From contig CAMNWO010000005.1 in assembly GCA_946565805.1 (NCBI GenBank), forward strand, positions 4,062 to 68,061: a DNA stretch of 64,000 bases, in the 5' to 3' direction. The translations under genes and the position numbers were made by a program. Under the pieces are notes generated by a model. That model was not told the DNA's origin. It made no database searches and worked only from the letters and a program-made list of their open reading frames with translations. Shown here in pieces: positions 1,323-24,412 of this stretch. The first letter of the stretch is position 1; each line of letters starts with the position of its first letter. Source of the DNA: an uncultured Clostridium sp. (lineage in GTDB: Bacteria > Bacillota > Clostridia > TANB77 > CAG-508).

Positions 1323-2424
1323 TTATAATTTCAGTTTCAAATAGCTTTCCATAAATTCATCAATTTCTCCATCCATAACTGCTTGTACATTTCCAACTTC
1401 ATAATTGGTTCTGTGGTCTTTTACCATCGTATAAGGACAAAATACATAAGAACGAATTTGACTTCCCCATGCAATATCCATTTGGACACCTTTTAAATCC
1501 TCAATTTTTTCTTTTTGTTCTTTTTCTTTTAAATCTAATAATTTGGATTTTAACATTTTCATCGCAGTTTCTCTATTTTGAATTTGTGAACGTTCTGATT
1601 GACAAGCTACCACAATGTTGGTTGGTATATGTGTTATTCTTACTGCTGAAGAGGTTTTGTTGATATGTTGCCCTCCTGCTCCTGAAGCACGATAGGTATC
1701 CACTCTTAAGTCATCTGGATTAATTTCTAATTCAATGTCATCTGTTATTTCTGGTAAAACCTCCAAAGAGGCAAAAGATGTATGCCTTCTTCCTCCACTG
1801 TCAAAAGGAGAAATTCTTACTAATCGATGAACTCCCATTTCAGATTTCATGTAACCATAAGCATTTTCCCCTACAATTTCAAAAGTTACACTTTTTATCC
1901 CAGCTTCTTCTCCTTCTAAGTAATCTAATTCTTTCACTTCATAATTATTTTTATTAGCCCATCTGGTATACATACGGTATAACATCTCTGCCCAGTCTTG
2001 CGATTCTGTTCCTCCTGCTCCTGGATGAATGGTAACAATTGCATTGTTGTTATCATATTTTCCAGATAGAAAAGTAGCAACTTCAAATTTCTCAATTTGT
2101 TTTTGTGTTTTATTTGTATTTCTTAGAATTTCTTTTGCAATTTCTTCATCTGGCTCTAGTTCTACTAATTCAGTTAGTTCTTCTAAATTATTAATTTCAT
2201 TTTTTATTTCAGTATATTGATTGGTTTTATTCTTGATTGCCTTTATTTTAGCTAATACTTTGCTGGAACTTTTGCTATCTCCCCAAAAATTCTCTTCCAT
2301 TGTTTTCTTTTCTAGTTCTTCTAATTGTTTATTTAGCTCAGCAATGTCAAAGAGATTCACCCAATTCTTGTAGTTTTTGTTTTAAAGCTTGAAGTATTTT
2401 TGTGTTTTCTTCTAACTCTAACAT
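1323..2424 (-). CDS. prfB: peptide chain release factor 2, expressed through a programmed +1 frameshift
   Basis: SPF (SPFDSGGRRHTSFA) and GGQ (GAGGQHINKT) motifs. ATG at 2422-2424 follows AAGGAGAG; 25 codons (MLELEENTKILQALKQKLQELGESL) end at in-frame TGA 2347-2349; the +1 frame continues as DIAELNK... to 1323. Confidence 0.93.
2346..2352 (-). promoter_or_regulatory. RF2 autoregulatory +1 frameshift site CTT TGA C
   Basis: Minus-strand sequence TTGGGTGAATCT CTT TGA C. The slippery CUU-U plus UGA-C context is identical to the canonical prfB site. Confidence 0.9.
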
Positions 2425-2491: not shown

Positions 2492-2527
2492 TTTAAAAAA
2501 ACCTGCCAATATTAATTGGCAGGTTTG
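2492..2527 (-). terminator. intrinsic terminator ending the kinase operon
   Basis: Stem aaacctgccaat / attggcaggttt with loop ttaa; on the minus strand it is followed by TTTTTTTAAAA. Confidence 0.85.
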
Positions 2528-2541
2528 ATGCGCATGCTCTC

Positions 2542-5500
2542 CTATTTCTTAGAAACATCATATAGAACATAATCTGTTATCACACTGAAACCTCGAGAGT
2601 TAAAGTTGCACAAACGTGAATTTGGAGTCATAATTGTGCACTCCATCTTCTTGTGGGTCATTTTATTTGTTTTGATAATGTACAGATTGTCTTGACTAGG
2701 AATGTAAATAACTCCCTTATTAAAGGCGACATTTTTCACATTCATGTCATTAACATCTGCTGGAATTTGACCTTCTGTGTAATGTCCATTTGATGCGTTA
2801 ATGATAAGAAACTTTCCTTTCGTACTAATTACTAGCCACATCTTTGAGACATCATCATAAAGAATGTTGTACTTAGAATTGGAATTCGAATCGATTTGGC
2901 AAAGCTCTTCGCTATTGCAATAAATCTTATCTCTTCCCTCTTTGTCGCGCTTAACTTGCATAAACTTTGCATTGAATTGTACCAAAAAACCAACGGTTTC
3001 CTGGTTTTTCAAGAATTTGATTTTATCTCGTCCTATGACATCAATTAAACCAAACTCAATCCTGTGGATAATATTTTCTCTACTTATGTAAAGAACATTA
3101 TCATTTACTACAACGTTATCTGTATCATAGCAGAATTTCTCTTCAAAAATTTGATGGTCTGACCTGATGTCAAATCCAACAATTCTATTTGAGTATACTG
3201 CCAAAGCAAGGGTATAACCATATAAAGGCAAAATATCGATAATTTCCATACAATTTGGAAAATGTGCATAATGTTCTGCTTTGTCATCTAATATAGTAGC
3301 ATAATAATCATTACTTTCTCTGCCTATAGCAGAACAAGTATTGATAATGCGAACTACATTTCTGGAAAAAGGATTGTTCTTTTTGGCAATAAACTTCGAA
3401 CCAATTGGAATAATATCTTTCTTTTCTGTATTTCCTGTATATAGAGCTTGATATTGTGCCTTAAGTTCTGGAACAATGCTACGTCTAAGATCTCCTTCGA
3501 AAGTGTTCAAAAAAACATTTTTCAGATCATCTCTCATCCAATCATCCCATGGTACTGCAATAGGAGGGATGGCTATGCCATGATTTCCTAAAAGAGATAA
3601 ACGGCGTTCCATTCTTTCGGGAATTTCTAAAATGTGTCCATCTACCTCATAAACCCCATTGAAAGGATGTATAAAAGTGAGATAGTGAAATGCTTGAACA
3701 GCCATTGAATACCAGTCATCTTTTTTAGTAATATTACCATTATTCTTAGATACTGGGTCAATATATCCATCTGTCCAAAAGATTGGCGAAATATTATCTA
3801 CACCCATTCCATCAAAGTCCAAAAAATATACGTTTTTGTCCTTATCAAAAAGAATATTTCCACCATTCAAATCACCAATAAAGATATTTGCCTTATCATG
3901 TAAAGTTTGAACTCCTTCACTTATTGTAATTAAAATTTCGAGTATATCTTTACGAGTAATACCTAAATCGTTTACTTGCTTCGTATCACATAAAGCAGAG
4001 ATTGGCTCGCCCTTTACTTTTTGATCCATGATATAGCCTAAGATCTTATTCGTTTTTTTGTCAACCAGAATTTTCTTGGGAAAAATGTACTTAAACTTAT
4101 GATTTTGCTGGTTGATTTCTTCCAAGATTTCTGTTTTTGCTATAATAGCAGAGAGAATTTTGCTCTTAAAAGAATAATCAATTTGATCTTCTTTGAAAAC
4201 TTTTGCAACACTATTATTTTTATATTCATATATAATAGCCTCTCCGCCTTGACCAAATTCTTTCCAATCAGAAATATTAGAAGAATTTACATACTTAATG
4301 TCTAGCTTTTTCATTTTCGTTCTATCCACACATCTAGGGCAGAATAAATCGTCAGCCTTATAATAAATTTTGTGAATAGAACAATACATGGTTAAAGTTT
4401 CAGCATATTCACCAAGTAAATTTAGAAGGTAGTCTATATTTCCTCTTTTTACCCAATTTACAGCAGAGATATCAATATCCTTATCTAAGTTAATCACATT
4501 AAGGATGTACTGGCATGTCCATTTTAATGTATTGGCCTGCTTTCCTTCTTCTCCCAAAAATTCAACATTAACAATTTGTACTTGTCCCTTATAGTTCTTA
4601 CTTAAGAAAACATCACCAAATGGATTTTGAATGAAATATAGCTGATTGTTAACAAGCTCTTTTACTTGTAAAATCAACCGTATTAAACACTTAATTCTTG
4701 GCAAGTTTTTTAAGTTCTCCACATCTTTTATGTCTTTAAAATCTAAATTGTCAAAATCGATAGCATTATAAAGATATCCTATAAATTTTTGATTACTAGC
4801 TGATAAAGCTTTTTTGTAAGGAAGGAAACAATCTTGCTGTAATGGATAAGCTTCTTCGCTCATTCTTCTAGTAATTATTTTATCAATATTTGCTTCCATT
4901 TTTGCCATATTAAGACTTTCTTCTTTATAAACTTTGAGATTATACTCACAAGAAAGTTTATAATGAATAGCATAGTTATCCTCAAAAACTTTAGCTAAAT
5001 TTTCTAACTCATCCTGTTGTATTATTTGACGTGTCTTCAAGCAAACTGGACACATTTGTTTTGAGCTATCATAATAAATTTTGTGTTCTTCACAATATGC
5101 ATCCATTTCCTCAGCAAGACAAATCAAATAGGATTCATAGTCGTAGAGGGACTCGTGTAAACCTAAATCCACAAAGGCATTTTCATTATACCCTCTGTTT
5201 GTTAATTGCTTAAAGAATTTTTTAATAAATTCTAATGTTGAGTCCTCACCACTTCTTAAGATTTCAAAAACTTCATCTAGTTTATTGATATAGAAGAAAA
5301 ACTCATCATCCCGCAAAGTTATATAAATATTTGACAAATGGATAAAGTATCTACCAAAGTTAGTCATTAACATCCCCGCGATTTGCAATATTTCCTTGTT
5401 GTTGTATTTTAAGAAACTATCCATTGTGATTGGCTCTCCAAAGAAAGGTGTTGTTATATACCCTGAAACATAATATAAATTATCTGAATTGAGATCGAAA

Positions 5501-7182
5501 GAATAAATAATTTCCGATATTTCAACAAATTCTACATATTTATTAAAGCCGTAAAATTTATTCGCAATCTCATCATCCAAAGAGTTCATTTTGCGTGCTA
5601 GCGTATAAATGTTTTCTCTCTTATTAAAAGTTACTACAAGTCTTCCATCTGGTAGCCTTTCTTTTGTATTTCTTTCCATCTTAACGTTGTACCTATCCTT
5701 CACTTCTTGTTCAAATGCGAAGGGAATCGTCTCCAATGGATTGTATAAAAAATTTCTGTCAAACAACAAGTTCTTATCAATAGGTTTCCCATCGTACAGG
5801 ATAAAGCTATTAAATTTCTCAGTTGCTCTATCAATGTCTACTTTTTTTGCCATAACAAAGTTATAGAATTCTTTTGCAAGCCTAGGAGACAGATATCGAA
5901 CTTCCTTTTTCTCATAAAGAGTTAACTTGTCTGAAATTTCACCATACGTTTTTTCTAAATAAGCACGAAGCAATTTGAAAAATAGCATGGTAATATCTTC
6001 GTCTATCTTTTGAGGACTTTCTGAAACAAGTCTAAACAAGCTATCAACTTCAACAATTTTAAAATTATTGTTTGGATAACACACTACTTCTGTTTCTATG
6101 TCAAATTCATGTTTATCTGTTTCAAACTCAGAATGTGCTTTTACACATAGTCCATGAAGATAACTGCTTAACTTAGAAACAAAATCAAGAATATCAGCTT
6201 GGCTTTCAAATGCAACATCTAAAATTGCTGATTTATTTTTACCTGCTGTGCATTCATATTCATATCCAATAATGTTATCATCAAAATCAACAACGAAAGT
6301 TTTAAAACAGTCTTCCAAATCTTCCCTTGTACAATTAAGAAATCCTTCGTTTGTCCCACTCTTTAAAAGTTCGCTAAACTTATTATCCATTTCTCGATAG
6401 ATTTTTATACGGTTATCATAAATGGTATAGTTTTCTGTCTTCTCTGTTACTGGCAATTTATTACTGAAATTGGAGTCACCAATAATATATACATTAGGCT
6501 GGTAGGATGATAGAAAACGTATTATGCCTTCCTTTTGTAAAACTAAATCAATATTTGGAATAGTTCCATTTGCACAATAGTTATAACACATTTGAATAAT
6601 TGACATGCCATAAGGAAAATCACGTAATCTACAAATTTCATTTTTTTCAATGATTGTCTGGTAAAATTCTTCCATGTTATCTTCACCTGAAAGTACATAA
6701 TGAACATATTTTATAAGACATCCATTTTCTGTACCCCCAAGTTTAAAAAATGAAAGAAAACTAGATAAATAGATACATGTTTCCTTATTAAAAACAGTCT
6801 CATCAATGGTATACCCCTTTTCCTGCATTTTCTGTGCAAAAGAAACTAGTTCTTGAAGCTTTTCAAAGTCTCCTAGTTGTTTCCACTCCTCTACTAAATA
6901 GGATTGCATATCAGCAAATAACATTTGCACACAATTTGATTTATCAGCTATAAAATCTGTAACTTTAAAATCAATATGCTTCTTAGATGAAATCGTTTCT
7001 TTCCATTGTTTTAAACTTTTTACAACGGGAAAAATCCTTTTTCCAACTTCTTTGTCTTCTAGCAAGACAACTATTTTGCCATCCCGATAATAGATTTTTT
7101 CTTTGCCAATAACTTCAGATACTAATTGATAAGAGCTTTTTTCAAAATTATTGAAAATAAATTTTTTAAATTTATCATTCAT
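2542..7182 (-). CDS. giant Ser/Thr protein kinase: N-terminal region, degenerate kinase-like repeats, two Zn-ribbons, one active Hanks-type kinase, beta-rich C-terminal domain
   Basis: AAAGGAGA SD precedes ATG 7182. Kinase motifs: GQGGEA (4237-4254), AKVFK, IGDLNGGN, DFDGMG (DFD 3811-3819), GYIDP, DDWYSMAV. CxxH..CPxC knuckles lie at 5041-5094 and 4330-4383. Confidence 0.8.
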   Translation of the reverse strand: MNDKFKKFIFNNFEKSSYQLVSEVIGKEKIYYRDGKIVVLLEDKEVGKRIFPVVKSLKQWKETISSKKHIDFKVTDFIADKSNCVQMLFADMQSYLVEEWKQLGDFEKLQELVSFAQKMQEKGYTIDETVFNKETCIYLSSFLSFFKLGGTENGCLIKYVHYVLSGEDNMEEFYQTIIEKNEICRLRDFPYGMSIIQMCYNYCANGTIPNIDLVLQKEGIIRFLSSYQPNVYIIGDSNFSNKLPVTEKTENYTIYDNRIKIYREMDNKFSELLKSGTNEGFLNCTREDLEDCFKTFVVDFDDNIIGYEYECTAGKNKSAILDVAFESQADILDFVSKLSSYLHGLCVKAHSEFETDKHEFDIETEVVCYPNNNFKIVEVDSLFRLVSESPQKIDEDITMLFFKLLRAYLEKTYGEISDKLTLYEKKEVRYLSPRLAKEFYNFVMAKKVDIDRATEKFNSFILYDGKPIDKNLLFDRNFLYNPLETIPFAFEQEVKDRYNVKMERNTKERLPDGRLVVTFNKRENIYTLARKMNSLDDEIANKFYGFNKYVEFVEISEIIYSFDLNSDNLYYVSGYITTPFFGEPITMDSFLKYNNKEILQIAGMLMTNFGRYFIHLSNIYITLRDDEFFFYINKLDEVFEILRSGEDSTLEFIKKFFKQLTNRGYNENAFVDLGLHESLYDYESYLICLAEEMDAYCEEHKIYYDSSKQMCPVCLKTRQIIQQDELENLAKVFEDNYAIHYKLSCEYNLKVYKEESLNMAKMEANIDKIITRRMSEEAYPLQQDCFLPYKKALSASNQKFIGYLYNAIDFDNLDFKDIKDVENLKNLPRIKCLIRLILQVKELVNNQLYFIQNPFGDVFLSKNYKGQVQIVNVEFLGEEGKQANTLKWTCQYILNVINLDKDIDISAVNWVKRGNIDYLLNLLGEYAETLTMYCSIHKIYYKADDLFCPRCVDRTKMKKLDIKYVNSSNISDWKEFGQGGEAIIYEYKNNSVAKVFKEDQIDYSFKSKILSAIIAKTEILEEINQQNHKFKYIFPKKILVDKKTNKILGYIMDQKVKGEPISALCDTKQVNDLGITRKDILEILITISEGVQTLHDKANIFIGDLNGGNILFDKDKNVYFLDFDGMGVDNISPIFWTDGYIDPVSKNNGNITKKDDWYSMAVQAFHYLTFIHPFNGVYEVDGHILEIPERMERRLSLLGNHGIAIPPIAVPWDDWMRDDLKNVFLNTFEGDLRRSIVPELKAQYQALYTGNTEKKDIIPIGSKFIAKKNNPFSRNVVRIINTCSAIGRESNDYYATILDDKAEHYAHFPNCMEIIDILPLYGYTLALAVYSNRIVGFDIRSDHQIFEEKFCYDTDNVVVNDNVLYISRENIIHRIEFGLIDVIGRDKIKFLKNQETVGFLVQFNAKFMQVKRDKEGRDKIYCNSEELCQIDSNSNSKYNILYDDVSKMWLVISTKGKFLIINASNGHYTEGQIPADVNDMNVKNVAFNKGVIYIPSQDNLYIIKTNKMTHKKMECTIMTPNSRLCNFNSRGFSVITDYVLYDVSKK

Positions 7183-7205
7183 AAGTTTTCTCCTTTTTTA
7201 GTCTG

Positions 7206-7227
7206 TAGGGGGAATTACATCCCCCTA
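7206..7227 (-). promoter_or_regulatory. GC-rich intercistronic stem-loop between the vWA stop and the kinase SD
   Basis: taggggga (7206-7213) / tcccccta (7220-7227) form a perfect 8-bp stem with a 6-nt loop. No U-tract follows on the minus strand, so it is not a classical terminator. Confidence 0.5.
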
Positions 7228-7231
7228 TCCC

Positions 7232-7939
7232 TTATATTGCATCAATCCAATCATCGTCTTCTAAGGCTTGAGCTGTTCTTTGAGAATATCCCTGGGACTG
7301 ACTCGAATGCATTCCCTGACTAAAGAAGTCCGCTCCCAAAGATTTATAGCTCTGTGATTGCTCTTTACATGAATTAGGAAGAGTAACTCCAAGGAAGTTT
7401 AAGAGTGCAGATCGATTTGTTACATCAACAGTTGCCTTAAATCCCAGCTTTCTCCCATATTCTGCGCTAATGTCTTTACCGAATGCTGCAAATGCTGTAT
7501 CTATTCCAGAATAGTTCATTCTAGCAACAGCTTTTCTTCCCTGTTCATCTGTCATTTTATCACGACAAGGTTCTCCGTCTGAAAAGCACACAAAAGTTGC
7601 TCTTGGAACGATTCCTGTACGTTTAACAACTTCACGAACGTAGTTGCAAAGAAGATCTGCAGATTTTGAAATCGAATAATTCAGTGCAGTTGCTCCATCT
7701 GCATAATAATGGTCACTCATCTCACTTACTGGTCTAAATTCACCAGGATAAAACTCCCCATTAAACCGACAAACAGATACAGCAATAGAATTTTTTAAAT
7801 AAAATGTCTCAAAGCTGTCCTTAAATAACCCAATGCCTTTTCGACAATTGCGTACATCATCACACATAGACCCTGATGAGTCCAGAAGTAGTACATAAGC
7901 ATTAATCCTATCTGAAGAAAAATCATAAAAGTTAGCCAT
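7232..7939 (-). CDS. von Willebrand factor A (TerY-like) protein with intact MIDAS
   Basis: LLLDSSGSM (DSSGS at 7868-7882), ADGATAL, CFSDGEP. GGAGG lies 8 nt before ATG 7939, so the track start at 7954 is probably too long. Confidence 0.8.
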   Translation of the reverse strand: MANFYDFSSDRINAYVLLLDSSGSMCDDVRNCRKGIGLFKDSFETFYLKNSIAVSVCRFNGEFYPGEFRPVSEMSDHYYADGATALNYSISKSADLLCNYVREVVKRTGIVPRATFVCFSDGEPCRDKMTDEQGRKAVARMNYSGIDTAFAAFGKDISAEYGRKLGFKATVDVTNRSALLNFLGVTLPNSCKEQSQSYKSLGADFFSQGMHSSQSQGYSQRTAQALEDDDWIDAI

Positions 7940-7955
7940 CGTTTTTACCTCCATT

Positions 7956-9476
7956 TTATAAGTTGTTTGTGTTTGTTTGTAAGTTACTTAATACATTTTC
8001 TAAACCGTTAAAGTAAAAAGAATTTAAAAATACCTTATTATTTTCTACTTTAAAATCGAAATTTAAATTTCGAAGTGTTTGAACAATTTTTGTTTCATTG
8101 TTATCCAAATGAAAAATAACGACATATTCCTTATTAGCAATATTTAGTACTTTTTGTTTCTTTTCTGTAATGGTTTTTGAATGATAAGGATATTTTGTAA
8201 TATATTTCTGGATGTGGCTACTAAGATCATTTGAAGTGTTTTTTACTACCCCAAGTGTATCAAAAAGCACCAATAAGAAATAAATTTCTTTGTAAGTAAT
8301 ATCCTCTGATAAGTTTTCTAGTAGTTTCATCAGTAACCATACACGTTCATCGTGTGTTTTGGCAAAAATACTTACTAAGGCTACCTTTGCTGTATCAATA
8401 GGAGAAACTAAGACTTCTTCTTCGTCTACTGTTATATCCATTCCAGCAATCAATTTCACCTTAATTTTTTCTTCCGCAACTTTGCTAAGCTTTAACATCT
8501 CAAACAAATCTGTTTCAAATGTTAAAATTTCATTCCAAAAATTATTCTCTAAGAGCATTTTTTTGGAATCTTTTAAATCAATAAGATGCGTAAGTAGTTT
8601 TTCTGATCTCATTTTTAGAGCTTTGTAATATCCGTCATTAGAAATGAAAGGTAAAAGCTCAAGTAAGTCAGATAACTCATTCTTTAGGAATGCCATATAA
8701 ACAGTTCCATAATCGAATTCATCAAAGTCTGACATCATAACAGAAGTTTCCTTAAGCAATATATTAGGCGATTTATCAGAGTTACGCACATTAGATTTGA
8801 AAATTTGATAATCTACATATGACAATAACTCTATTACTCGTTCTTTCAACTGCTGGTCTGCTAAAATATAATAGCAATTCTTGAATTCTTCTACAATCTC
8901 TCTTTCCTTCTGAATCGCTTTTTCGAGCTGTAAGCAAACCTTTGCTTTTTCACATTCTTTCGAATGGATTATCGAAACGTTGTATAAAATATTCAATTTT
9001 TTAATTAGTCGCTGTAAGCGCTTTGAGATAATGTGAAACTTTACCGTGCTTTCAATGAACTTTCGAATATCCTTTTGAAGCCTAACTATCTCATCGATTT
9101 TGGAAGTATCACTATCTGGATCAATTTCAAAAGTTAGTAATTTTTTGAGTTCTTCCAAACTTGAATTGTACGAAGCTCTTAAATTTTCTATCCTTTGCAA
9201 AAATCCATTGTATTCTTCCGGAAAATCATTTTCGAAGATAGCAATTTCTTGCAGAAGTTCGTAAAGCTTTGTCATTAATGTCCTCTTGGCAACATTTATG
9301 CGTTCTTGCATTTCTTCTTCTGCTACTTCCTCGTTAAGGTTATCAACAGAAGTATCACTTTGCTCGGTAGTACCTTCTGGCATAGCAAGTGCAGGAATAT
9401 TATTTTCCGCCGTTTCTAAAGAAAATGGGGGAAAAATATTGTTAAAAAAATCATAAATTTTTTGCATAAAAGTCAC
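7956..9476 (-). CDS. 506-aa predicted all-helical/coiled-coil protein of unknown function
   Basis: GTG start 8 nt after AGGAGG. Acidic N-terminus and heptad-like Leu/Ile/Lys/Glu-rich sequence; I recognise no motif. Tightly packed between the two vWA genes. Confidence 0.6.
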   Translation of the reverse strand: MTFMQKIYDFFNNIFPPFSLETAENNIPALAMPEGTTEQSDTSVDNLNEEVAEEEMQERINVAKRTLMTKLYELLQEIAIFENDFPEEYNGFLQRIENLRASYNSSLEELKKLLTFEIDPDSDTSKIDEIVRLQKDIRKFIESTVKFHIISKRLQRLIKKLNILYNVSIIHSKECEKAKVCLQLEKAIQKEREIVEEFKNCYYILADQQLKERVIELLSYVDYQIFKSNVRNSDKSPNILLKETSVMMSDFDEFDYGTVYMAFLKNELSDLLELLPFISNDGYYKALKMRSEKLLTHLIDLKDSKKMLLENNFWNEILTFETDLFEMLKLSKVAEEKIKVKLIAGMDITVDEEEVLVSPIDTAKVALVSIFAKTHDERVWLLMKLLENLSEDITYKEIYFLLVLFDTLGVVKNTSNDLSSHIQKYITKYPYHSKTITEKKQKVLNIANKEYVVIFHLDNNETKIVQTLRNLNFDFKVENNKVFLNSFYFNGLENVLSNLQTNTNNL

Positions 9477-9496
9477 GTTATATTCCTCCTATCCTC

Positions 9497-10243
9497 TTAT
9501 TGAAAAGTTCTTGGAATAGAACCGATCGAATGAAAACCAAGCTCTGCTGCCTCCTTAAAATATTCTTCTGAAAGACAAAAGTATTTGGTTGTTACTTTAA
9601 TCTTTGACGCTACCTTGTAAAAACTGTTCCATGCTTCTTCTTTCGAAGTAACAGAGCTATTGTCTTTACAAGTTCCAATACCAATGATACTAATCTTATC
9701 AATTTGAAGTCTGTCATGTTCTCTTTCTTCGATTGACAAGTATTTCTCATTAACTATTTTCTCGAGCTGAACCAAAGCATCAAATAAACATACTTTTTCT
9801 CCTGTCATTTCATGACATAAGACAGGAACAGCCTTTTCCTTAGAAGTTTCGAAAATTTCACTTTGTTTTACAGTTTCACCATAATTGATGATACATACTA
9901 AATCTGACTTTGCAAAATTTTTAACAATTTGCAAAACAGTATCTTTTTCGTTTCCTACTATTGCCGTATTTTCTACCAAAATAATGGTAAGCTCTTTCTT
10001 TTCCAACCGTTTAATGATTGGTTTTGGAATAATAGGTTTAGAAGAGGCTGTTCTGAAAGTTGTTCCTTCTTCTGGAAGTCCATACATCAATTGAAATTCT
10101 AAATTAGGATCCACAAGTTTGGAAGCTTTTTCTTTTCCAATTGGCTGTTGTTCTTTTTTAGGTTGTTCAACTGTTGCTGGATATTCATCCTTTTTCTTTC
10201 TCCATTTTTTACCCTTTGTTTTTGAATTGTCAAATATACCCAT
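9497..10243 (-). CDS. vWA-like protein with degenerate MIDAS and a Lys/Pro-rich N-terminus
   Basis: LTIILVENTAIV...LVCIINYGETV...ISIIGIGTCKDN...TTKYFCLSEE follows the vWA strand pattern, but the DxSxS positions read ENTAI. AGGAGG SD; its ATG overlaps the upstream stop (TAATG). Confidence 0.55.
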   Translation of the reverse strand: MGIFDNSKTKGKKWRKKKDEYPATVEQPKKEQQPIGKEKASKLVDPNLEFQLMYGLPEEGTTFRTASSKPIIPKPIIKRLEKKELTIILVENTAIVGNEKDTVLQIVKNFAKSDLVCIINYGETVKQSEIFETSKEKAVPVLCHEMTGEKVCLFDALVQLEKIVNEKYLSIEEREHDRLQIDKISIIGIGTCKDNSSVTSKEEAWNSFYKVASKIKVTTKYFCLSEEYFKEAAELGFHSIGSIPRTFQ

Positions 10244-10929
10244 TATTTTTTACCTCCTAACATTCCAATTGTAATATCATCATGAAAAGACATTCTTTTT
10301 TCTTTGAGAATTGTTTCTGTCAGAGAGAAGTTTTCAGCTACAATACTGGTATCTATGTCTTTCATGTCAAATTTTATAATTGGCATAACTCCATCAGTAG
10401 CAATTAATACCTTCTTGAAAACTGTTTTATCAAAGGTAAATGTCTTAAATTGATAATCCTTGAAAGTAGGTGCCATCTGACTACAATATTTGTAGGCATA
10501 GTATGGCGGGCAACTTCCATATGCAAATTTCATATAACTCAATAATCCTTTTGCATTTTGGGTAATAATGTACCCATCTCCAAAAAGTTTCACAATGTAC
10601 TTATCTTCTGTTTCAAAACAAGCTATGATTGTAAACAAAAGATTTTCCATAATGTAATCTCTTTCGAGGTCATCGCTAATTGGATAGTACTTTTTTAACA
10701 TAGTAAGTATGTCATCAAAAACACTTTTTACATTATCTTCAAATTTTTCTAAGCTATCACATTCCTCCTTTCTTGAGAAAAGCTGTCCAAACAACCGTGC
10801 TCCGGAATCGGAATACTTTGCAGCACTGCACCCATCTAAAATAAGTACCATTTTTTCGTTTTCCATTCCAAAATCTTGATTGTTAATTCCATTTGTAAAA
10901 TGCCCAAATCCTTGAGAAGTTATAATCAT
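10243..10929 (-). CDS. PP2C-family (PP2C_2-like) protein phosphatase
   Basis: SQGFGHFTNGINNQDFG, LILDGCSAAKYSDSGA, KLFGDGYII and LIATDGVM match the conserved Asp/Gly blocks of bacterial PP2C_2 proteins. AGGAGA SD. Confidence 0.7.
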   Translation of the reverse strand: MIITSQGFGHFTNGINNQDFGMENEKMVLILDGCSAAKYSDSGARLFGQLFSRKEECDSLEKFEDNVKSVFDDILTMLKKYYPISDDLERDYIMENLLFTIIACFETEDKYIVKLFGDGYIITQNAKGLLSYMKFAYGSCPPYYAYKYCSQMAPTFKDYQFKTFTFDKTVFKKVLIATDGVMPIIKFDMKDIDTSIVAENFSLTETILKEKRMSFHDDITIGMLGGKK

Positions 10930-10978
10930 AATTTCCCTTTCTCCTTTCTATTGTTTATTTCAAAAAAATAACATATAC

Positions 10979-11007
10979 ATAATACCATATTTTATGTAAA
11001 ACATCAA
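10979..11007 (-). promoter_or_regulatory. candidate extended -10 promoter of the PP2C-vWA-kinase operon
   Basis: Minus strand TTGATG (11002-11007), 17-nt spacer ending in TGg, TATTAT (10979-10984). Confidence 0.5.
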
Positions 11008-11010
11008 TAC

Positions 11011-11044
11011 AAAAGGGCGAATTTCTTTCGAAATCCACCCTTTT
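11011..11044 (-). terminator. hairpin downstream of TelA
   Basis: aaaagggcgaatttc / gaaatccaccctttt form a 15-bp stem with two G-U pairs on the RNA and loop tttc. The U-run is only the CCCUUUU at the stem base, so termination may be partial. Confidence 0.5.
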
Positions 11045-11064
11045 GATATGTTTTTTATCTGAAA

Positions 11065-12315
11065 TTAAAATTTCAGACCAGCAACTCCAGTTGGAGTTTT
11101 GCTTGTTTCTGTATTTAATGTTTCAATAGATGTACCAACAACTGGCTCAAGCTGTTCGATTAAGCCATTTAATTCAGTGAGATCTGCCTTCATCTTAGGA
11201 AGCATTTCATCAGCCACTTTCTTAATGTTTTCACAACTATTTATTACTTCTGTTACCGCAGTTTTTGCTGCGTCCGCATTATAAAAACTTGCATACATCG
11301 CTTTCTCAGCTAGCTCTGCTGTCATTCCAACTGATTGACTAACATCTTTTACAAGTTCGTCATTCAGTCGCACAATTGCATTCTGCCCTTCCAAGACCTC
11401 TTTGGTCTTTGCATTTAACAGTGCATTACGTAATTGCTGCCCCACAAGAGCCATACTGTTATTGACCTGCGTGTTAATTGCAATCTGGACATCAATATTA
11501 CTCTTTTTGATTAATGACAGTTGCCCCATGCTTAAATAATACATAATACGGGACTTTTCAAGGTTGTTCATCGTTATTTCAAAAATGTCATGTCCTTCCT
11601 TAAGTTCCTGATAATCATGTGCATATTGTAACATTCCCGTTGTCTGATGCTGCTCTTGGATCGCTTGCATTTCACCAGCAATTCGTTCATCTGCAATCTT
11701 GCCAGCAATAATGTACTTTTCAAGCAAAGAAATTGTCTCAATATCACTCAGCATCGAAGTTGTAATATCTCCCATTGCATTTTTCAACATATTAACCCAA
11801 GTATCGCAAGACGTTTTCAATTCTACCAAAAGTTTATAGCTAGTTACTGCACTTTTTTGAATCTTATCTGTCTTCGATTTGCTTTTGGATCCGCTTGTAA
11901 GTTTCAGTAAGAGTTTCTGAAAAAGGCCTGGCTCTTGAAGAACCATATTGAAATCATCATAACTGTTCGAAGCCTTTTTCGAAAGTTCAATAACTCTTGA
12001 AATGACTTCCTGGTCAGCATGTGAACCTCTTTCATCTTTTAAAAAACTTCCGCACTGCTCAAATGTCCTCTTCAATGCAATAGAACCATAGCTCATAACA
12101 TTTTCAGTTTTTCTAACATCAATGCTATCTGCAAGTTCTAAGATTTCCTGCCGTTCTTTCTCTGAATAAGTTGCTAATGCCTGTTTGCAATTAAGCGGTA
12201 TGACATCATTTTTTGTTGTTGGAACAGAAATCTGTTGTAACCCAATTGCTCCTACGTCTGGTGTCACAACTGTTTCCGGTGTTGTTTGTGTAGCCATTTG
12301 TGTGTTATTTTCCAT
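11065..12315 (-). CDS. telA: TelA-family (toxic anion resistance) protein
   Basis: ILELADSIDVRKTENVMSYGSIALKRTFEQCGSFL and a long helical body of ~400 aa resemble TelA/YceH/YaaN proteins. GGAGG lies 8 nt before ATG 12315. Confidence 0.7.
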   Translation of the reverse strand: MENNTQMATQTTPETVVTPDVGAIGLQQISVPTTKNDVIPLNCKQALATYSEKERQEILELADSIDVRKTENVMSYGSIALKRTFEQCGSFLKDERGSHADQEVISRVIELSKKASNSYDDFNMVLQEPGLFQKLLLKLTSGSKSKSKTDKIQKSAVTSYKLLVELKTSCDTWVNMLKNAMGDITTSMLSDIETISLLEKYIIAGKIADERIAGEMQAIQEQHQTTGMLQYAHDYQELKEGHDIFEITMNNLEKSRIMYYLSMGQLSLIKKSNIDVQIAINTQVNNSMALVGQQLRNALLNAKTKEVLEGQNAIVRLNDELVKDVSQSVGMTAELAEKAMYASFYNADAAKTAVTEVINSCENIKKVADEMLPKMKADLTELNGLIEQLEPVVGTSIETLNTETSKTPTGVAGLKF

Positions 12316-12369
12316 AGTGTTTACCTCCATTGTTTAAACATTAAATTGGTTACTATATTACGTTCACTT

Positions 12370-12398
12370 ATTATATCACCGTTTATTAATTATGTCAA
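12370..12398 (-). promoter_or_regulatory. consensus sigma-A promoter of telA
   Basis: Minus strand TTGACA (12393-12398), 17-nt spacer ending in TGa, TATAAT (12370-12375). Confidence 0.7.
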
Positions 12399-12473
12399 TT
12401 AGCATTGATAAATTTCTTTTCATTTGTATTGAAGGTTATCTTTATTATTAAAAAGTGTTAAGAAAAACGTATT

Positions 12474-12510
12474 AAATAAGAAAATGGCGAAAGAAATTTA
12501 TTCTTCCGCC
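12474..12510 (-). terminator. intrinsic terminator after the 180-aa gene
   Basis: On the minus-strand RNA, GGCGGAAGAA / UUCUUUCGCC pair fully (one G-U), followed by AUUUUCUUAUUU. Confidence 0.7.
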
Positions 12511-12554
12511 ACAAGATTCACTATTCAATTGTTATCTGAAAATTTCAAGTTAGC

Positions 12555-13097
12555 TTACTCGTCTCTGCTTTCTTCGCTTTCTTCCTGCTCATCTTCATAC
12601 ATCCATTTTTGGAAGCCTTCGACAAACTTTTGTGCCGTCTTTTTCGCCTTTTTCTCGGCTTTAGCTACATATTTAGGTCCTTTGTCTTTAACCTTTTCTT
12701 TAGTAGCATTGAAGCCCTCCTGTACTGTGCTACTAACCTCCTCGAATGCAGTTCTGGCATCTTCGTACATCTGCTTAATTTCTTCAGAATACGCAGGCTT
12801 GTTTCCATCTTCGATCATTTCAATCAGTTTGGAGGTATACTCCAAAACAAATTCTTTATCTACTTTTCCGCCACAATAAGATAAAACATGCTGCTGGAGT
12901 GATTTCGCAAGAATAGCATACTGTTTTTCTTCTAAAAGTGGTTCCACAGAACCAAACAGCTGCATCATACATTCATCGATAAGTGGTTTGTCTTTTTCCT
13001 TTGCATATCTCAGAATGTTCCGGATGTCAATCAGTTTCTCATAAGCTTTCTTAACGTTTTCATTCATCATAGTTGCACCAACCTTTCTTAAAGTCAT
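12555..13097 (-). CDS. 180-aa helical protein with a Lys-rich then acidic C-terminus, unknown function
   Basis: ORF with its own promoter and terminator; the start could be the internal ATG at 13070. I recognise no motif. Confidence 0.5.
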   Translation of the reverse strand: MTLRKVGATMMNENVKKAYEKLIDIRNILRYAKEKDKPLIDECMMQLFGSVEPLLEEKQYAILAKSLQQHVLSYCGGKVDKEFVLEYTSKLIEMIEDGNKPAYSEEIKQMYEDARTAFEEVSSTVQEGFNATKEKVKDKGPKYVAKAEKKAKKTAQKFVEGFQKWMYEDEQEESEESRDE

Positions 13098-13115
13098 TTT
13101 TAACGTTACTTTGCT

Positions 13116-13144
13116 ATCTTATCACATTATGTTAAATTTGTCAA
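13116..13144 (-). promoter_or_regulatory. candidate promoter of the 180-aa gene
   Basis: Minus strand TTGACA (13139-13144), 17-nt spacer ending in TGa, TAAGAT (13116-13121). Confidence 0.4.
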
Positions 13145-13176
13145 TTAAAAATAGTGGAAAACTAAATTTCCACTAT
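13143..13176 (-). terminator. secA terminator
   Basis: atagtggaaa (13151-13160) / tttccactat (13167-13176), followed on the minus strand by UUUUUAAUU. Confidence 0.75.
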
Positions 13177-13183
13177 CTTAGTA

Positions 13184-15952
13184 TTATTGATTTTTGCCAC
13201 AGCAATTTTTGTATTTCTTCCCACTTCCACATGGACAAGGATCATTTCTACCAACCTTAGGACCTTCATTACGAACTGTTCTATCAACATCTGTTCCTAT
13301 TTTAGCTCCTCCATCTACACTGTGGATTGCTTCTAAAGCTGCCCCTGTAATTTTAACTGTTTCTTGTCTTTTTGTTTCTCCTTGTTGTCTAATATGCATT
13401 AATATCTTAGTTACATCTACTTTAATGTCATTTATCATTTCGTCAAACATGTCAAAACCTTCTAAACGATACTGAACAACTGGATCTTTTTGACCGTAAG
13501 CACGTAAGCCAATACCATTTTTCAATTCGTCCATGCTATCAATGTGGTTCATCCATTTTTCGTCAACAACTTTAAGCATAACCACTCTTTCTAACTCTCT
13601 CATTTCATCTTGACCAATTTCTTGTTCTTTTTCAGCATAGATTTCCATTGCTTTTTTCTTTAATTCTGCTGAAATGGCATTAGAATCTGTTTTGTTATTT
13701 TTAATATAGTCTAACATATCAATTCCAAAAATATTGATAATTTCTGTATTTAAAGACTCTACATTTAACTCTGAAGTTTCTACATCAATAAACATATCTA
13801 CTATATTATCTGCTACAAATTCAACCATAGAAATAATGCTGTCATGGATATTTTCTCCATCTAAAACTTGTCTTCTTTGTTTATAGATAATTTCTCTTTG
13901 TGCATTCATAACATCGTCATATTTCAATACATTTTTACGAATACTGAAGTTTCTTCCTTCTACTTTCTTTTGCGCATTTTCTACTGCATTTGAAATAATT
14001 CTAGATTCAATTGGCATATCTTCATCTGCCCCAATTGTATTGTATACTTTTGTGATGGCATCTCCACCGAATATTTTCATTAAATCGTCATCTAATCCAA
14101 TATAGAATTTAGACTCACCATTATCTCCTTGACGTCCAGAACGTCCACGTAACTGATTGTCAATTCTTCTTGATTCATGTCTTTCGGTACCTATAATTTT
14201 TAATCCACCAGCTGCAATTACTTTTTCTTTTTCTTCTTTGATCTGTTCATCGTATTTTTTAACCAAACTTCTAAATTGTTCTCTTGCTTTTAGTATTTCT
14301 TGGTCTTCTGTTTCATAGTAGGTATCTGCTTCTTCAATGATTTCATGAGCTACTTTATTTCTTCTCATTTCTTCTTTGGCTAGGAACTCACTATTTCCAC
14401 CAAGCATAATGTCAGTACCACGTCCTGCCATGTTGGTTGCAATTGTAACAGCTCCAAATTTACCAGCTTGTGCTACAATTTCAGCTTCTTTTTCATGGTA
14501 TTTTGCGTTTAATACTTCGTGTTTAATTCCTTCTTTTTTCAATAACTGGCTTAATTTTTCTGATTTTTCAATGGATACTGTACCTACTAAGACTGGTTGT
14601 CCTACTTCATGGCTCTTTTTAATGCTTTCTACAATAGCTCTATATTTAGCATTTTCGTTTTTGTAAATAACATCATTTTCATCTTTACGAACCATTGGCT
14701 TATTGGTTGGAATGTCAACAACGTCTAAGTTATAGATTTCTTCGAATTCTCCTTCTTCTGTCATAGCTGTACCTGTCATACCAGATAATTTATCATACAT
14801 TCTAAATAAGTTTTGGAAGGTAATAGTTGCTAATGTTTTAGACTCGTCTGCAATTTTTACATTTTCTTTTGCTTCAATTGCTTGGTGTAATCCATTGTTG
14901 TATCTTCTTCCATACATAATACGTCCTGTAAATTCGTCAACAATTAATACTTCTCCATCTTTTACGATGTAATCAATGTCTTTTTTCATAACACCATGGG
15001 CTCTTAAAGCTTGGTTTACGTGATGAACTAATGTTGAATTTTCCAAGTCATTGAAGTTTTCTAGGTTAAAAGCATCTTCTGCTTTTTTAATACCTTTTCC
15101 AGTTAATGACGCAGATTTTGCCTTCAAGTCTACGATATAATCGTATTTTTCATTGTCTTCTGCTTGGTCATAATCTTTGATATCTTCTTCTACAATTACT
15201 TTTGGTGTTAGTCTTTTTACAAAGTCATTTGCTTTTTTGTATAGTCCTGATGACTCATTTGCTCTACCAGATATAATTAATGGTGTACGTGCTTCATCAA
15301 TTAAAATACTGTCGATTTCATCAACAATGGCATAATGTAATCCTCTTTGTACTAATTGGTTTTTGTAAATAACCATGTTATCTCTTAGGTAGTCAAATCC
15401 AAATTCATTATTGGTCCCATAAGTTACGTCTGCATTGTAAGCTTCTTGTTTTTCTTTTGGCTCCATTCCGCTAATTACTAATCCAACAGATAGTCCTAAG
15501 AATTTATATAGTTTTCCCATCCATTCACTGTCTCTTTTTGCTAGGTAATCGTTAACAGTAATAACATGCACTCCTTTTCCTTCTAGTGCATTTAAGTATA
15601 CAGGCAAAGTTGCAACTAGAGTTTTTCCTTCTCCTGTTTTCATTTCGGCAATTCTTCCTTGGTGTAGGATAATTCCACCGATTAATTGCACATCAAAATG
15701 TCTCATTCCTAATACTCTTTTAGAGGCTTCTCTTACAACTGCAAATGCTTCTACTAGAATATCGTCTAATGTTTTTCCTTCTTGTAATTGTTTTTTGAAT
15801 TCGTCGGTTTTTGCTCTTAATTGGCTGTCACTTAATTTTGACATTTCTTCTTCTAGTCCATTAATTTTTTCAACTAATGGCATTACTCTTTTTACTTCTT
15901 TTTCACTGTATGATTTGAATATTTTGTTAAATATACTCATTTTTGTCTTCAA
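13184..15952 (-). CDS. secA: preprotein translocase ATPase SecA
   Basis: 922 aa with [28 protein letters not shown] and the C-terminal Zn finger [14 protein letters not shown]. Confidence 0.97.
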
Positions 15953-24337: not shown

Positions 24338-24412
24338 GTCCCGACTAGCTTAACTGGCAAAGCAAATCTACTTTGGGTGGATTGGTTAGAGGTTCGAATC
24401 CTCATCGGGACA
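24338..24412 (+). tRNA. tRNA-like gene, anticodon UUG (Gln), with non-canonical features
   Basis: 7-bp acceptor GTCCCGA/TCGGGAC, anticodon stem ATCTA/TGGAT with loop CTTTGGG, T arm GAGG-TTCGAAT-CCTC, GG in the D loop. Deviations: C at position 8, A-A mismatches closing the D and T stems, no encoded CCA. Confidence 0.6.

What the first reader, a model, noticed from the sequence alone, without database searches (positions are those of the whole stretch)
2492..13142. Accessory island splitting secA-prfB: TelA + PP2C + two vWA + helical orphan + giant Ser/Thr kinase (expanded TerY-P-like module)
Seen: seven co-oriented minus-strand genes (12555-13097, 11065-12315, 10243-10929, 9497-10243, 7956-9476, 7232-7939, 2542-7182) lie between the secA terminator (13143-13176) and a strong terminator (2492-2527) that precedes a prfB promoter. 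The last five form one tight operon: a TAATG stop/start overlap at 10241-10245, 20-nt and 16-nt gaps, and an extended -10 promoter at 10979-11007. telA and the 180-aa gene each have their own consensus-like promoter and terminator. Established: secA and prfB are direct neighbours in Bacillus subtilis and many Firmicutes, so this looks like an insertion into a conserved pair. vWA + PP2C + Ser/Thr kinase is the logic of the TerY-P (TerY-phosphorylation) triad, defined by comparative genomics of Ter/TelA stress loci and, to my recollection, later listed among experimentally supported anti-phage systems. Inference: this locus is an enlarged relative, adding a second MIDAS-less vWA, a 506-aa helical partner, a 1546-aa multi-pseudokinase kinase and an adjacent TelA. 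It is a candidate envelope-stress or phage-sensing phosphorylation switch whose architecture I do not recognise as described. Composition is mosaic. Hand counts on single 60-nt lines give 29/60 G+C at 7261-7320 (vWA) and 24/60 at 11281-11340 (telA), versus 18/60 at 3001-3060 (kinase) and 18/60 at 13801-13860 (secA).
Basis: partly seen in the sequence, partly recalled or inferred. Interest (0 to 1): 0.85.

Follow-up and report, generated by a model that had tools for sequence, protein, structure and literature searches.

The report
Exchangeable giant-kinase signalling cassette in gut Clostridia
Between secA and prfB lies a conserved, previously unnamed six-gene kinase/phosphatase/vWA/TelA cassette, found only in uncultured gut Clostridia, that is present or absent among close relatives and swapped between them, much as immune or conflict genes are.

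Summary
Six of the genes form a rigid cassette: telA, then a separate operon of PP2C, a vWA-like protein, a ~500-aa helical protein, a MIDAS vWA protein and a ~1550-aa kinase. The 180-aa gene is not part of it.

The cassette occurs in 42 species-level genomes, all uncultured animal-gut Clostridia, and in no viral contig.

Domain calls largely hold:
- TelA and PP2C pass Pfam.
- The 235-aa protein is a vWA with an invariant MIDAS.
- The kinase has intact catalytic residues, two Zn ribbons, kinase-fold (pseudokinase) N-terminal units and a beta-rich tail.
- The second "vWA" has only weak support.
- The helical protein has no detectable relative.

"Island" is half right. There are no mobility genes or att repeats, and the window shares the cassette with its sister genome by descent. 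However, closer relatives have empty secA-prfB sites, neutral divergence in the cassette is 2-7 times that of the flanks in several species pairs, gene trees disagree, and cassette GC3 exceeds flank GC3 in 31 of 31 loci.

I read it as a new, enlarged variant of the TerY-P-type phosphorylation switch, probably conflict-related. Function is untested.

The parts
11065..12315 (-). telA: TelA-family protein with its own promoter and terminator, conserved first gene of the cassette
   Evidence: Pfam TelA E 1.1e-19, above the gathering score. Lies directly upstream of the PP2C gene in 33 of 36 informative species genomes. In 32 of 32 loci it is followed by a strong hairpin plus T-rich tail.
12370..12398 (-). 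telA promoter, TTGACA-17-TATAAT with TG (12 of 12 consensus positions)
11010..11045 (-). telA intrinsic terminator (16-bp stem)
10979..11007 (-). extended -10 promoter of the five-gene operon
10243..10929 (-). PP2C-type Ser/Thr phosphatase, 228 aa
   Evidence: Pfam PP2C_2 E 3.8e-8. Metal-binding motifs D19, D32-G33, D118-G119, D179-G180 and D217-D218 are conserved in at least 93% of 37 orthologues.
9497..10243 (-). 248-aa protein (about 310 aa in most relatives): disordered K/E/P-rich N-terminus plus an alpha/beta domain, probably a degenerate vWA fold without MIDAS
   Evidence: No Pfam or PDB sequence hit. hhalign against the vWA family gives E 0.003 over 132-147 colinear columns, the best of 10 control comparisons. 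Always the second gene of the operon.
7956..9476 (-). 506-aa helical protein with a small C-terminal alpha/beta domain and no recognisable relatives
   Evidence: AF2 mean pLDDT 79.6, almost all helices. Foldseek finds no match with E <= 0.001 in PDB or BFVD. An exhaustive HMMER search finds only 97 clusters among 1.84 billion representatives, and the two most distant full-length hits looked up (P0226, P0216) sit in the same cassette.
7232..7939 (-). 235-aa vWA protein with a complete MIDAS (D20, S22, S24, T84, D121) and a conserved Ser/Gln-rich tail ending in an acidic motif with Trp
   Evidence: Invariant residues in alignment A2. 20 of 34 orthologues hit Pfam VWA, best E 4e-9. Tail residues S190, Q194, S195, F205, F206 and S207 are invariant.
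7205..7228 (-). GC-rich hairpin without a U-tract in the spacer between the vWA gene and the kinase gene
   Evidence: Read. 30 of 32 orthologous spacers fold with z < -2 and at least 8 consecutive pairs, and the stems differ in sequence.
5113..7182 (-). kinase residues 1-690: array of protein-kinase-like (pseudokinase) units without catalytic motifs
   Evidence: AF2 mean pLDDT 88.6, pTM 0.72. Foldseek against PDB gives 942 matches at E <= 10, and the listed top 50 are nearly all kinase or pseudokinase folds (Pan3, maize pseudokinase 6cpy, CK2, BRAF, APH(2''), NleH2) at probability 0.9-1.0 and E 1e-3 to 4e-2. No G-loop, catalytic-loop or DFG invariants.
5041..5094 (-). Zn ribbon 1 (C697, H700, C711, C714)
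   Evidence: Invariant residues. hhalign against Zn ribbon 2 gives probability 96.7%.
4393..5007 (-). kinase residues 726-930: degenerate duplicate of the kinase N-lobe region
   Evidence: hhalign of Zn ribbon 1 plus this region against Zn ribbon 2 plus the kinase gives probability 96.3% over 136 columns.
4330..4383 (-). Zn ribbon 2 (C934, H937, C948, C951)
3433..4302 (-). active Ser/Thr kinase domain (G979-G-E981, K994, D1104, N1109, D1122-F-D1124-G)
   Evidence: The named catalytic residues are invariant across the family, apart from D1122, which is conserved in at least 90%. 19 of 22 family members hit Pfam Pkinase, best E 2e-10. The window copy itself matches only NCBIfam LanKC kinase (1.9e-7) and PADLOC PD-T4-6 (6e-4).
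2545..3432 (-). kinase C-terminal beta-rich domain (residues 1251-1546), internally duplicated, possibly a beta-propeller
   Evidence: The two halves align at E 0.004. A profile against PDB sequences returns only beta-propellers (BamB, semaphorin) but weakly, E 0.04-0.8. No structure was predicted.
2492..2527 (-). terminator closing the operon, upstream of the prfB promoter
   Evidence: Read directly: AAACCTGCCAATTAATATTGGCAGGTTTTTTT.
12555..13097 (-). 180-aa acidic helical orphan with its own promoter (13144-13116) and terminator (12512-12484); a variable passenger and not a cassette member
   Evidence: Found only in the window and L003/L009, at 65% identity. No family hit. Highest GC3 of the region, 0.389.

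Best explanation
This is a chromosomal, self-contained Ser/Thr phosphorylation switch of the TerY-P type (vWA protein + PP2C phosphatase + Zn-ribbon kinase), enlarged into a fixed six-gene cassette. It is restricted to a clade of uncultured gut Clostridia, and it behaves in evolution like a conflict (immune-like) locus.

Shown here:
- Gene order and content are rigid across at least 40 species.
- None of the proteins has a hydrophobic stretch long enough for a transmembrane segment.
- The kinase, the PP2C and the MIDAS site keep their catalytic or metal-binding residues.
- All genes are under purifying selection (dN/dS 0.06-0.45).
- telA is always a separate transcription unit.
- A conserved hairpin separates the vWA gene from the kinase gene.
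- The cassette is present or absent among close relatives and has been exchanged between lineages.

Inferred mechanism:
1. The giant kinase is both sensor and scaffold. Its pseudokinase array, two Zn ribbons and beta-rich C-terminal domain hold it inactive and bind a trigger, either a phage or invader component or a stress signal.
2. Once active, it phosphorylates partner proteins. The best candidate substrate is the invariant Ser-rich tail of the MIDAS vWA protein, by analogy with the archaeal ArnB vWA tail phosphorylated by ArnC.
3. The MIDAS vWA protein, the degenerate vWA-like protein and the helical protein assemble in a phosphorylation- and metal-dependent way.
4. PP2C resets the system.
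5. No nuclease, protease or pore protein is encoded. The output is therefore most likely growth arrest or altered envelope physiology, through phosphorylation of host targets and/or through TelA.
For: Conservation: colinear telA, PP2C, 248-aa, 506-aa, vWA and kinase genes in essentially all 42 genome loci and in the most divergent relatives. Domains. Selection: dN/dS 0.06-0.45 for cassette genes against 0.02-0.08 for secA and prfB, and never above 0.51 in 100-codon windows of the kinase. Conflict-like evolution: (a) empty secA-prfB sites in L053 and L061, whose SecA is 87-91% identical to the window's, while relatives at 70-76% SecA identity carry the cassette at the same site; (b) 4-fold-site divergence of 0.43-1.07 in the cassette against 0.11-0.16 in the flanks (L013 vs L021), 0.68-1.31 against 0.14 for secA and 0.23-0.28 for most other flank genes, two short flank ORFs reaching 0.71-0.74 (L013 vs L020), and 0.66-1.36 against 0.34-0.64 (L005 vs L008); (c) the kinase tree disagrees with the SecA and PrfB trees, for example L017 has PrfB 85-91% identical to group B but a kinase only 38-40% identical; (d) cassette GC3 exceeds flank GC3 in 31 of 31 loci, mean difference +0.10, Wilcoxon p 9e-10, while GC at codon positions 1 and 2 is about equal. 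Precedents: the TerY-P triad is defined as a TerY-like vWA protein, a PP2C and a Ser/Thr kinase with a Zn ribbon, and a variant protects against T7-like phages (PMC11090510, PMC7699616). [quoted passage not shown] The C-terminal domain of the ArnB vWA protein is phosphorylated by ArnC (PMC7472852).
Against: No experiment exists. No recognisable effector is encoded. No PADLOC model named TerY matched any component; the kinase hits only generic kinase models, and I could not confirm that this library holds TerY-P models. The cassette is absent from viral contigs, sits among housekeeping genes without neighbouring defence or mobility genes, and is confined to one bacterial clade, whereas most defence systems spread across phyla. 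No window of the kinase shows dN/dS above 1. Elevated GC3 and elevated synonymous divergence could partly reflect gene-specific codon usage or biased gene conversion, without any immune role. The fold of the second vWA-like protein and the beta-propeller reading of the kinase tail are not established.
Confidence: 0.5

Rival explanations
1. The cassette is a lineage-specific housekeeping stress regulator. It senses envelope, metal or oxidative stress through the MIDAS site and TelA and adjusts physiology by reversible phosphorylation, as first proposed for Ter-linked TerY-P triads. It plays no part in conflict with phages or other invaders.
For: It occupies a conserved chromosomal position among housekeeping genes. 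It has sigma-A-type promoters. Selection is purifying throughout. TelA belongs to a toxic-anion and envelope-stress family. No effector or mobility genes are present. It is absent from viral contigs.
Against: Close relatives lack it entirely, with clean empty sites. Divergent alleles occur in near-identical genomic backgrounds, with 2-7 times the neutral divergence of the flanks. Gene trees are incongruent. GC3 is atypical in 31 of 31 genomes. A core stress regulator would be expected to follow the species tree and to share the host's composition.
Confidence: 0.3
2. The region is a recently inserted mobile genomic island, integrase- or transposase-borne, that split secA-prfB in this genome.
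For: secA and prfB are adjacent in close relatives. GC3 is raised.
Against: No integrase, transposase, tRNA target or flanking direct or inverted repeats were found. 4-fold-site divergence from the sister genome L003 is 0.18-0.26 in the operon and 0.16-0.42 in the flanks, so the cassette was already present in their common ancestor. The same site is occupied in relatives with only 70% SecA identity. The 3' end of secA and prfB show no mosaic structure.
Confidence: 0.05
3. The seven genes are a chance neighbourhood of unrelated or decaying genes and not a functional unit.
For: Most of the window's own proteins fail Pfam thresholds.
Against: Six of the seven genes are colinear across at least 40 species down to 25-30% identity. 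Catalytic residues are invariant and dN/dS is well below 1.
Confidence: 0.02

Closest known systems
TerY-P (TerY-phosphorylation) triad, from Anantharaman, Iyer and Aravind 2012 as summarised in PMC11090510 and PMC4978471; an anti-phage variant was tested by Gao et al. 2020 as summarised in PMC7699616
   Same: It has a standalone vWA protein with a metal-binding MIDAS site, a PP2C phosphatase and a eukaryote-type Ser/Thr kinase carrying Zn ribbons, all in one operon. It is linked to a tellurite-resistance-family gene (TelA). Its distribution is patchy and accessory.
   Different: There are six genes, not three. Extras are a second, MIDAS-less vWA-like protein, a 500-aa helical protein of unknown fold family, and a kinase five times larger with about three N-terminal pseudokinase units, a duplicated Zn-ribbon plus N-lobe module and a beta-rich tail. 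The Zn ribbons precede the kinase-like domains and are not at the C-terminus, and there is no OB fold. No associated restriction or DNA-processing genes are present. No defence-library model named TerY matched. Whether the vWA protein belongs to the TerY clade was not tested.
Actinobacterial kinase (Zn ribbon + beta-strand-rich domain) / PP2C / standalone vWA theme next to GAP1-N2 GTPases (Kaur et al. 2020, PMC7159879)
   Same: [quoted passage not shown] The authors interpret it as regulated assembly of complexes in a conflict system.
   Different: No GAP1-N2 or other GTPase was seen in any context examined. The host is Clostridia, not Actinobacteria. The pseudokinase array, the helical protein and TelA have no counterpart.
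ArnA/ArnB/ArnC/PP2A archaellum regulatory network of Sulfolobus (PMC7472852)
   Same: A vWA protein whose C-terminal region is phosphorylated by a eukaryote-type kinase and reset by a phosphatase, so that phosphorylation controls complex formation. This is a mechanistic precedent for the Ser-rich tail of the vWA protein here.
   Different: It is archaeal, has an FHA partner where this cassette has a helical or vWA-like partner, is not a single operon, and is not homologous beyond the domain level.
Deinococcus radiodurans DRA0331-0334 operon: vWA, Ser/Thr kinase, FHA, PP2C (bioRxiv 10.64898/2026.01.23.701218; abstract only)
   Same: vWA, kinase and PP2C genes lie together in one operon, with kinase-phosphatase antagonism.
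   Different: It contains an FHA protein, an ordinary-sized kinase and no TelA, and it is linked to DNA-damage signalling.

Membership tests
TerY-P triad | Standalone TerY-like vWA protein with a metal-binding MIDAS site | tested here: inconclusive
   A vWA fold family with an invariant D-x-S-x-S...T...D motif is shown. Membership of the TerY clade specifically was not tested, because no TerY reference sequences were obtained. NCBIfam and PADLOC gave no TerY hit.
TerY-P triad | Adjacent PP2C-family phosphatase | tested here: met
   Pfam PP2C_2 E 3.8e-8, above the cut-off, with metal-binding Asp motifs conserved.
TerY-P triad | Adjacent catalytically competent Ser/Thr kinase | tested here: met
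   G-loop, K994, D1104, N1109 and D1124 are invariant, and 19 of 22 family members hit Pfam Pkinase.
TerY-P triad | Kinase fused at its C-terminus to a Zn ribbon (or to an OB fold in the tested anti-phage variant) | tested here: not met
   Two CxxH...CPxC ribbons lie at residues 697-714 and 934-951, each N-terminal of a kinase-like module. The C-terminus is a 300-aa beta-rich domain, and no OB fold was seen.
TerY-P triad | Recognised by defence-system profile libraries | tested here: inconclusive
   No PADLOC model named TerY matched the window proteins (all seven), 34 vWA orthologues, 22 kinases or three PP2C proteins. I could not verify that the library holds such models. A candidate positive control, the L051 triad, also gave none.
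TerY-P triad | Protection against phage when expressed | not testable with these tools
   Needs cloning and phage challenge.
TelA (PF05816) | Full-length match above Pfam's gathering score | tested here: met
   71.1 bits against a cut-off of 30, residues 65-395 on profile positions 3-327 of 332.
vWA domain (PF00092), for the second 248-aa protein | Detectable vWA profile match or fold | tested here: inconclusive
   No Pfam or PDB hit in 29 members. hhalign against the cassette's own vWA family gives E 0.003 and probability 9-10% over 132-147 colinear columns, better than 9 unrelated controls.
Protein-kinase-like fold, for kinase residues 1-690 | Structural similarity to kinases or pseudokinases | tested here: met
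   An AF2 model with pLDDT 88.6 gave, among the top 50 Foldseek PDB matches listed, almost only kinase-fold proteins at probability 0.9-1.0, although E-values were only 1e-3 to 4e-2 and TM-scores were low. No sequence-level similarity to the active domain was found.
Mobile genomic island (integrative element) | Recombinase gene, flanking att repeats, tRNA or other specific target | tested here: not met
   No recurrent recombinase family in the flanks of about 35 loci. No boundary repeats in the window. No viral-contig copy.
GAP1-N2 GTPase-centred conflict systems (kinase/PP2C/vWA theme) | Neighbouring GAP1-N2-type GTPase | tested here: not met
   The precomputed Pfam content of neighbours in 7 contexts shows no GTPase.

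The most novel reading that the evidence does not exclude
The cassette is a new family of bacterial innate-immune sensor. The tandem pseudokinase units of the giant kinase act as integrated decoys or baits for phage-encoded factors, as proposed for plant tandem kinase proteins. Bait engagement releases the C-terminal active kinase. The two vWA-fold proteins, the helical protein and TelA then execute a phosphorylation-gated growth arrest. Highly divergent alleles are kept in the population and swapped at a fixed chromosomal site between secA and prfB.
Probability: 0.15. Interest if true: 0.85.

Novelty: new variant of a known kind. Interest (0 to 1): 0.62.

Why it matters
If the cassette is a working switch, it extends the vWA/PP2C/kinase (TerY-P) signalling logic to a much larger, architecturally distinct machine.

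- It contains a bacterial kinase built from about four kinase-fold modules plus two Zn ribbons.
- It contains two partner proteins with no known relatives.
- It exists only in uncultured gut Clostridia, where no defence or stress system of this kind has been studied.
- Deep alleles exchanged at a fixed housekeeping site, without mobility genes, would be a clear bacterial example of a recombination-maintained hypervariable signalling locus.
- It offers testable targets: K994/D1104, the MIDAS site, the Ser-rich tail and the PP2C.
- It would also give TelA, a long-standing protein of unclear function, a defined signalling partner.

Tried and rejected
1. Direct Pfam, NCBIfam and PADLOC scans of the window proteins. 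Only TelA and PP2C passed. The kinase and vWA calls needed family-wide scans.
2. PDB sequence-profile searches for the vWA, 248-aa and 506-aa families. Nothing significant was found.
3. Foldseek of the 506-aa model against PDB and BFVD. Only generic helical-bundle noise came back (PhoU, translin; TM-score about 0.2), so no assignment was made.
4. An exhaustive HMMER profile search with the 506-aa family, to find relatives in other contexts. None were found outside the cassette among those examined.
5. A viral-contig scan. It was negative.
6. A search for deletion remnants in the empty secA-prfB sites. Only the prfB leader matched.
7. A search for a recombination junction in the 3' end of secA or in prfB. 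None was found.
8. A search for positive selection in 100-codon windows of the kinase. None was found; the maximum dN/dS was 0.51.
9. NG86 dS looked inflated for very divergent proteins, so I replaced it with 4-fold sites in conserved codons. The excess over the flanks persisted at a smaller size.
10. The PADLOC positive control using the small triad in L051 did not return TerY models, so the PADLOC negative carries little weight.
11. The original Ter paper (PMC4104200) is not held. The TerY-P definition is therefore taken from papers that cite it.
12. The ABC-type gene upstream of the telA-less L006 cassette is not recurrent.
13. Public names for cassette proteins were looked up. The only name found was "hypothetical protein".


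Full report
**1. Observation**

The region holds seven co-oriented minus-strand ORFs: 2542-7182 (1546 aa), 7232-7939/7954, 7956-9476, 9497-10243, 10243-10929, 11065-12315/12330 and 12555-13097. They lie between secA (13184-15952) and prfB (1323-2360 plus its frameshift leader).

In both, the upstream in-frame ATG is part of an AATGGAGGTAAA Shine-Dalgarno context.

The promoters and terminators are as described:
- telA promoter at 12398-12370, matching 12 of 12 consensus positions with TG.
- 180-aa gene promoter at 13144-13116.
- Operon promoter at 11007-10979.
- Terminators at 13176-13151, 12512-12484, 11045-11010 and 2527-2492.

Both motif coordinates check out against the family alignments.

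**2. What the proteins are**

On the window's own sequences only TelA (1e-19) and PP2C_2 (4e-8) pass Pfam. The remaining assignments needed relatives.

*Kinase.*
- Homologues are rare. The word-seeded search returned 29 clusters, all 1545-1612 aa long.
- 19 of 22 family members hit Pkinase, best E 2e-10.
- G979-G-E, K994, D1104, N1109 and D1124 are invariant and D1122 is nearly so (at least 90%), as are two CxxH...CPxC Zn ribbons at residues 697-714 and 934-951.
- Zn ribbon 1 plus residues 726-930 is a degenerate duplicate of Zn ribbon 2 plus the kinase N-lobe (hhalign probability 96%).
- Residues 1-725 fold confidently (pLDDT 88.6).
- The Foldseek matches listed for that model are almost exclusively kinase and pseudokinase folds. 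Probabilities are 0.9-1.0, but E-values are modest at 1e-3 to 4e-2.
- The secondary-structure pattern suggests about three units, and none has catalytic motifs.
- The last 300 residues are beta-rich and internally duplicated. They weakly resemble only beta-propellers.

*vWA protein (235 aa).* D20, S22, S24, T84 and D121, a full MIDAS, are invariant. So is a Ser/Gln-rich tail. 20 of 34 orthologues hit Pfam VWA.

*248-aa protein.* It has no family hit. Its only link to vWA is a weak, colinear profile-profile match, E 0.003 and probability about 10%, which is better than nine unrelated controls. I treat this as probable and not shown.

*506-aa protein.*
- It is nearly all helical, with a small C-terminal alpha/beta domain (pLDDT 79.6).
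- It has no structural match with E <= 0.001 in PDB or BFVD.
- An exhaustive HMMER search found only 97 clusters among 1.84 billion representatives.

*PP2C.* All metal-binding Asp motifs are kept.

None of the proteins has a hydrophobic stretch long enough for a transmembrane segment.

**3. The unit and its distribution**

A scan of 185,579 species genomes found 42 loci. All are uncultured Clostridia MAGs from rabbit, mouse, sheep, buffalo and human guts. The scan of IMG/VR found none.

Gene order is telA, PP2C, ~250-320 aa, ~500 aa, ~235 aa, ~1550 aa. It is colinear in essentially every locus with enough flank. It also holds around the two most distant full-length relatives of the helical protein that I looked up.

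telA lies directly upstream in 33 of 36 informative loci. In 32 of 32 loci it is followed by a strong terminator-like hairpin. It is therefore a constant but separately transcribed member.

The 180-aa gene occurs only in the window and its sister L003.

Flanking genes are housekeeping and differ between subclades: secA/prfB/aak in one, and rpsT/tmk/valS-like genes in another. No recombinase family recurs. The island borders in the window carry no repeats.

**4. Island or not**

*Against a recent insertion.*
- Compared with L003 (SecA 99% identical), 4-fold-site divergence is 0.18-0.26 in the five operon genes and 0.34 in telA, against 0.16-0.42 in the flanking housekeeping genes (secA, prfB, aak).
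- The same site is occupied in relatives with only 70-76% SecA identity.

*For accessory, exchangeable behaviour.*
- (a) The closest prfB relatives in metagenomes are L053 (SecA 87%) and L061 (SecA 91%, same downstream synteny). In both, secA lies next to prfB, with no cassette, no telA and no remnants.
- (b) In species pairs with near-identical flanks, the cassette is far more diverged at neutral sites:
  - L013 vs L021: flanks 0.11-0.16, cassette 0.43-1.07.
  - L013 vs L020: secA 0.14 and most other flank genes 0.23-0.28 (two short flank ORFs reach 0.71-0.74), cassette 0.68-1.31.
  - L005 vs L008: flanks 0.34-0.64, cassette 0.66-1.36.
  - L012 vs L018: mosaic, with telA at 0.73.
- (c) The kinase tree conflicts with the SecA and PrfB trees.
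- (d) Cassette GC3 exceeds flank GC3 in 31 of 31 loci, with a mean difference of +0.10 and p 9e-10, while GC at codon positions 1 and 2 is about equal. In the window GC3 is 0.23-0.32 for the six cassette genes, against 0.193 +/- 0.043 for other ORFs.
- Selection is purifying throughout. dN/dS is 0.06-0.45, with no window above 0.51.

Together this describes an old cassette kept at a fixed site. It is lost in some lineages and replaced by divergent alleles through recombination in others.

**5. Mechanism**

*Shown.* The cassette encodes an intact kinase/phosphatase pair, a metal-binding vWA protein with a conserved Ser-rich tail, two unknown partners and TelA, all lacking a hydrophobic stretch long enough for a transmembrane segment. 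telA has its own promoter. A conserved hairpin without a U-tract lies between the vWA and kinase genes.

*Inferred.*
- The pseudokinase array, Zn ribbons and beta-rich tail sense a trigger and gate the kinase.
- The kinase phosphorylates cassette partners, with the vWA tail as the first candidate. The precedent is the ArnB vWA protein, whose C-terminal domain is phosphorylated by ArnC (PMC7472852).
- PP2C resets the system.
- No classical effector is encoded, so the output is probably growth arrest or envelope change, through host-protein phosphorylation and/or TelA.

The evolutionary pattern favours a conflict role over a core stress regulator, but it does not prove one.

**6. Comparison with known systems**

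The logic matches the TerY-P triad: a TerY-like vWA protein, a PP2C and a Ser/Thr kinase with a Zn ribbon. That triad was proposed as a metal-sensing phosphorylation switch, and a variant is active against T7-like phages (PMC11090510, PMC7699616, PMC4978471). [quoted passage not shown]

It differs in several ways:
- six genes in place of three;
- the position and duplication of the Zn ribbons;
- the pseudokinase array;
- the helical and vWA-like partners;
- obligatory TelA linkage;
- no associated nuclease or GTPase genes.

No defence-library model named TerY matched, which is weak evidence. Five full-text literature searches returned no description of this cassette. The only public name found for a cassette protein is "hypothetical protein".

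**7. Verdict**

The cassette is a new variant of a known kind of system. It is of real but not extraordinary interest, because its function is untested and its core logic is already known.

Noticed in passing
window 7205-7228 (minus strand); orthologous spacers in L003-L049: A GC-rich hairpin of 9-16 bp without a U-tract lies between the vWA stop codon and the kinase RBS. 30 of 32 orthologous spacers fold with z < -2, and the stems differ in sequence, so the structure is conserved and not the sequence. It may be an intra-operon attenuator or an mRNA stability or processing element that sets the kinase-to-vWA ratio.
   Followed up: partly
window 7936-7961 and 12312-12337: telA and the vWA gene share an 85% identical 26-nt translation-initiation region (AATGGAGGTAAAnACnATGG). 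Both longest ORFs therefore start with a spurious MEV(K/N)TM.
   Followed up: no
window about 2340-2424 (minus strand): prfB carries the classical programmed +1 frameshift site (CTT TGA C) after a short leader ORF that starts at 2424.
   Followed up: no
L051 881-6859 (minus strand), next to a distant copy of the cassette: A second, small 230-aa + PP2C_2 (337 aa) + Pkinase (578 aa) gene set, together with an IetA-like AAA ATPase (PADLOC 3e-24) and a DUF1257/DUF2997-like protein, lies divergently beside telA. It may be a canonical small triad plus a defence ATPase.
   Followed up: partly
window 12555-13097: The 180-aa acidic helical orphan has its own promoter and terminator. It has the highest GC3 in the region (0.389) and occurs only in the window and L003, at 65% identity. 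The slot between secA and telA holds other genes elsewhere (RhuM + PHP in L005), and an alpha-amylase sits between the kinase and prfB in L003. Both cassette borders are therefore variable cargo slots.
   Followed up: partly
L040 2085-2348 and equivalents in L039-L049: An 88-aa ORF recurs immediately upstream of telA in the most divergent cassette subfamily, and sometimes a second copy lies downstream. Its function is unknown.
   Followed up: no
L006, L023, L024/L025: One kinase subclade lacks telA upstream of the PP2C gene. L006 has a non-recurrent ABC-type protein in that position.
   Followed up: partly
window 24339-24411: This tRNA is the only Rfam gathering-level hit in the 64-kb window.
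   Followed up: no
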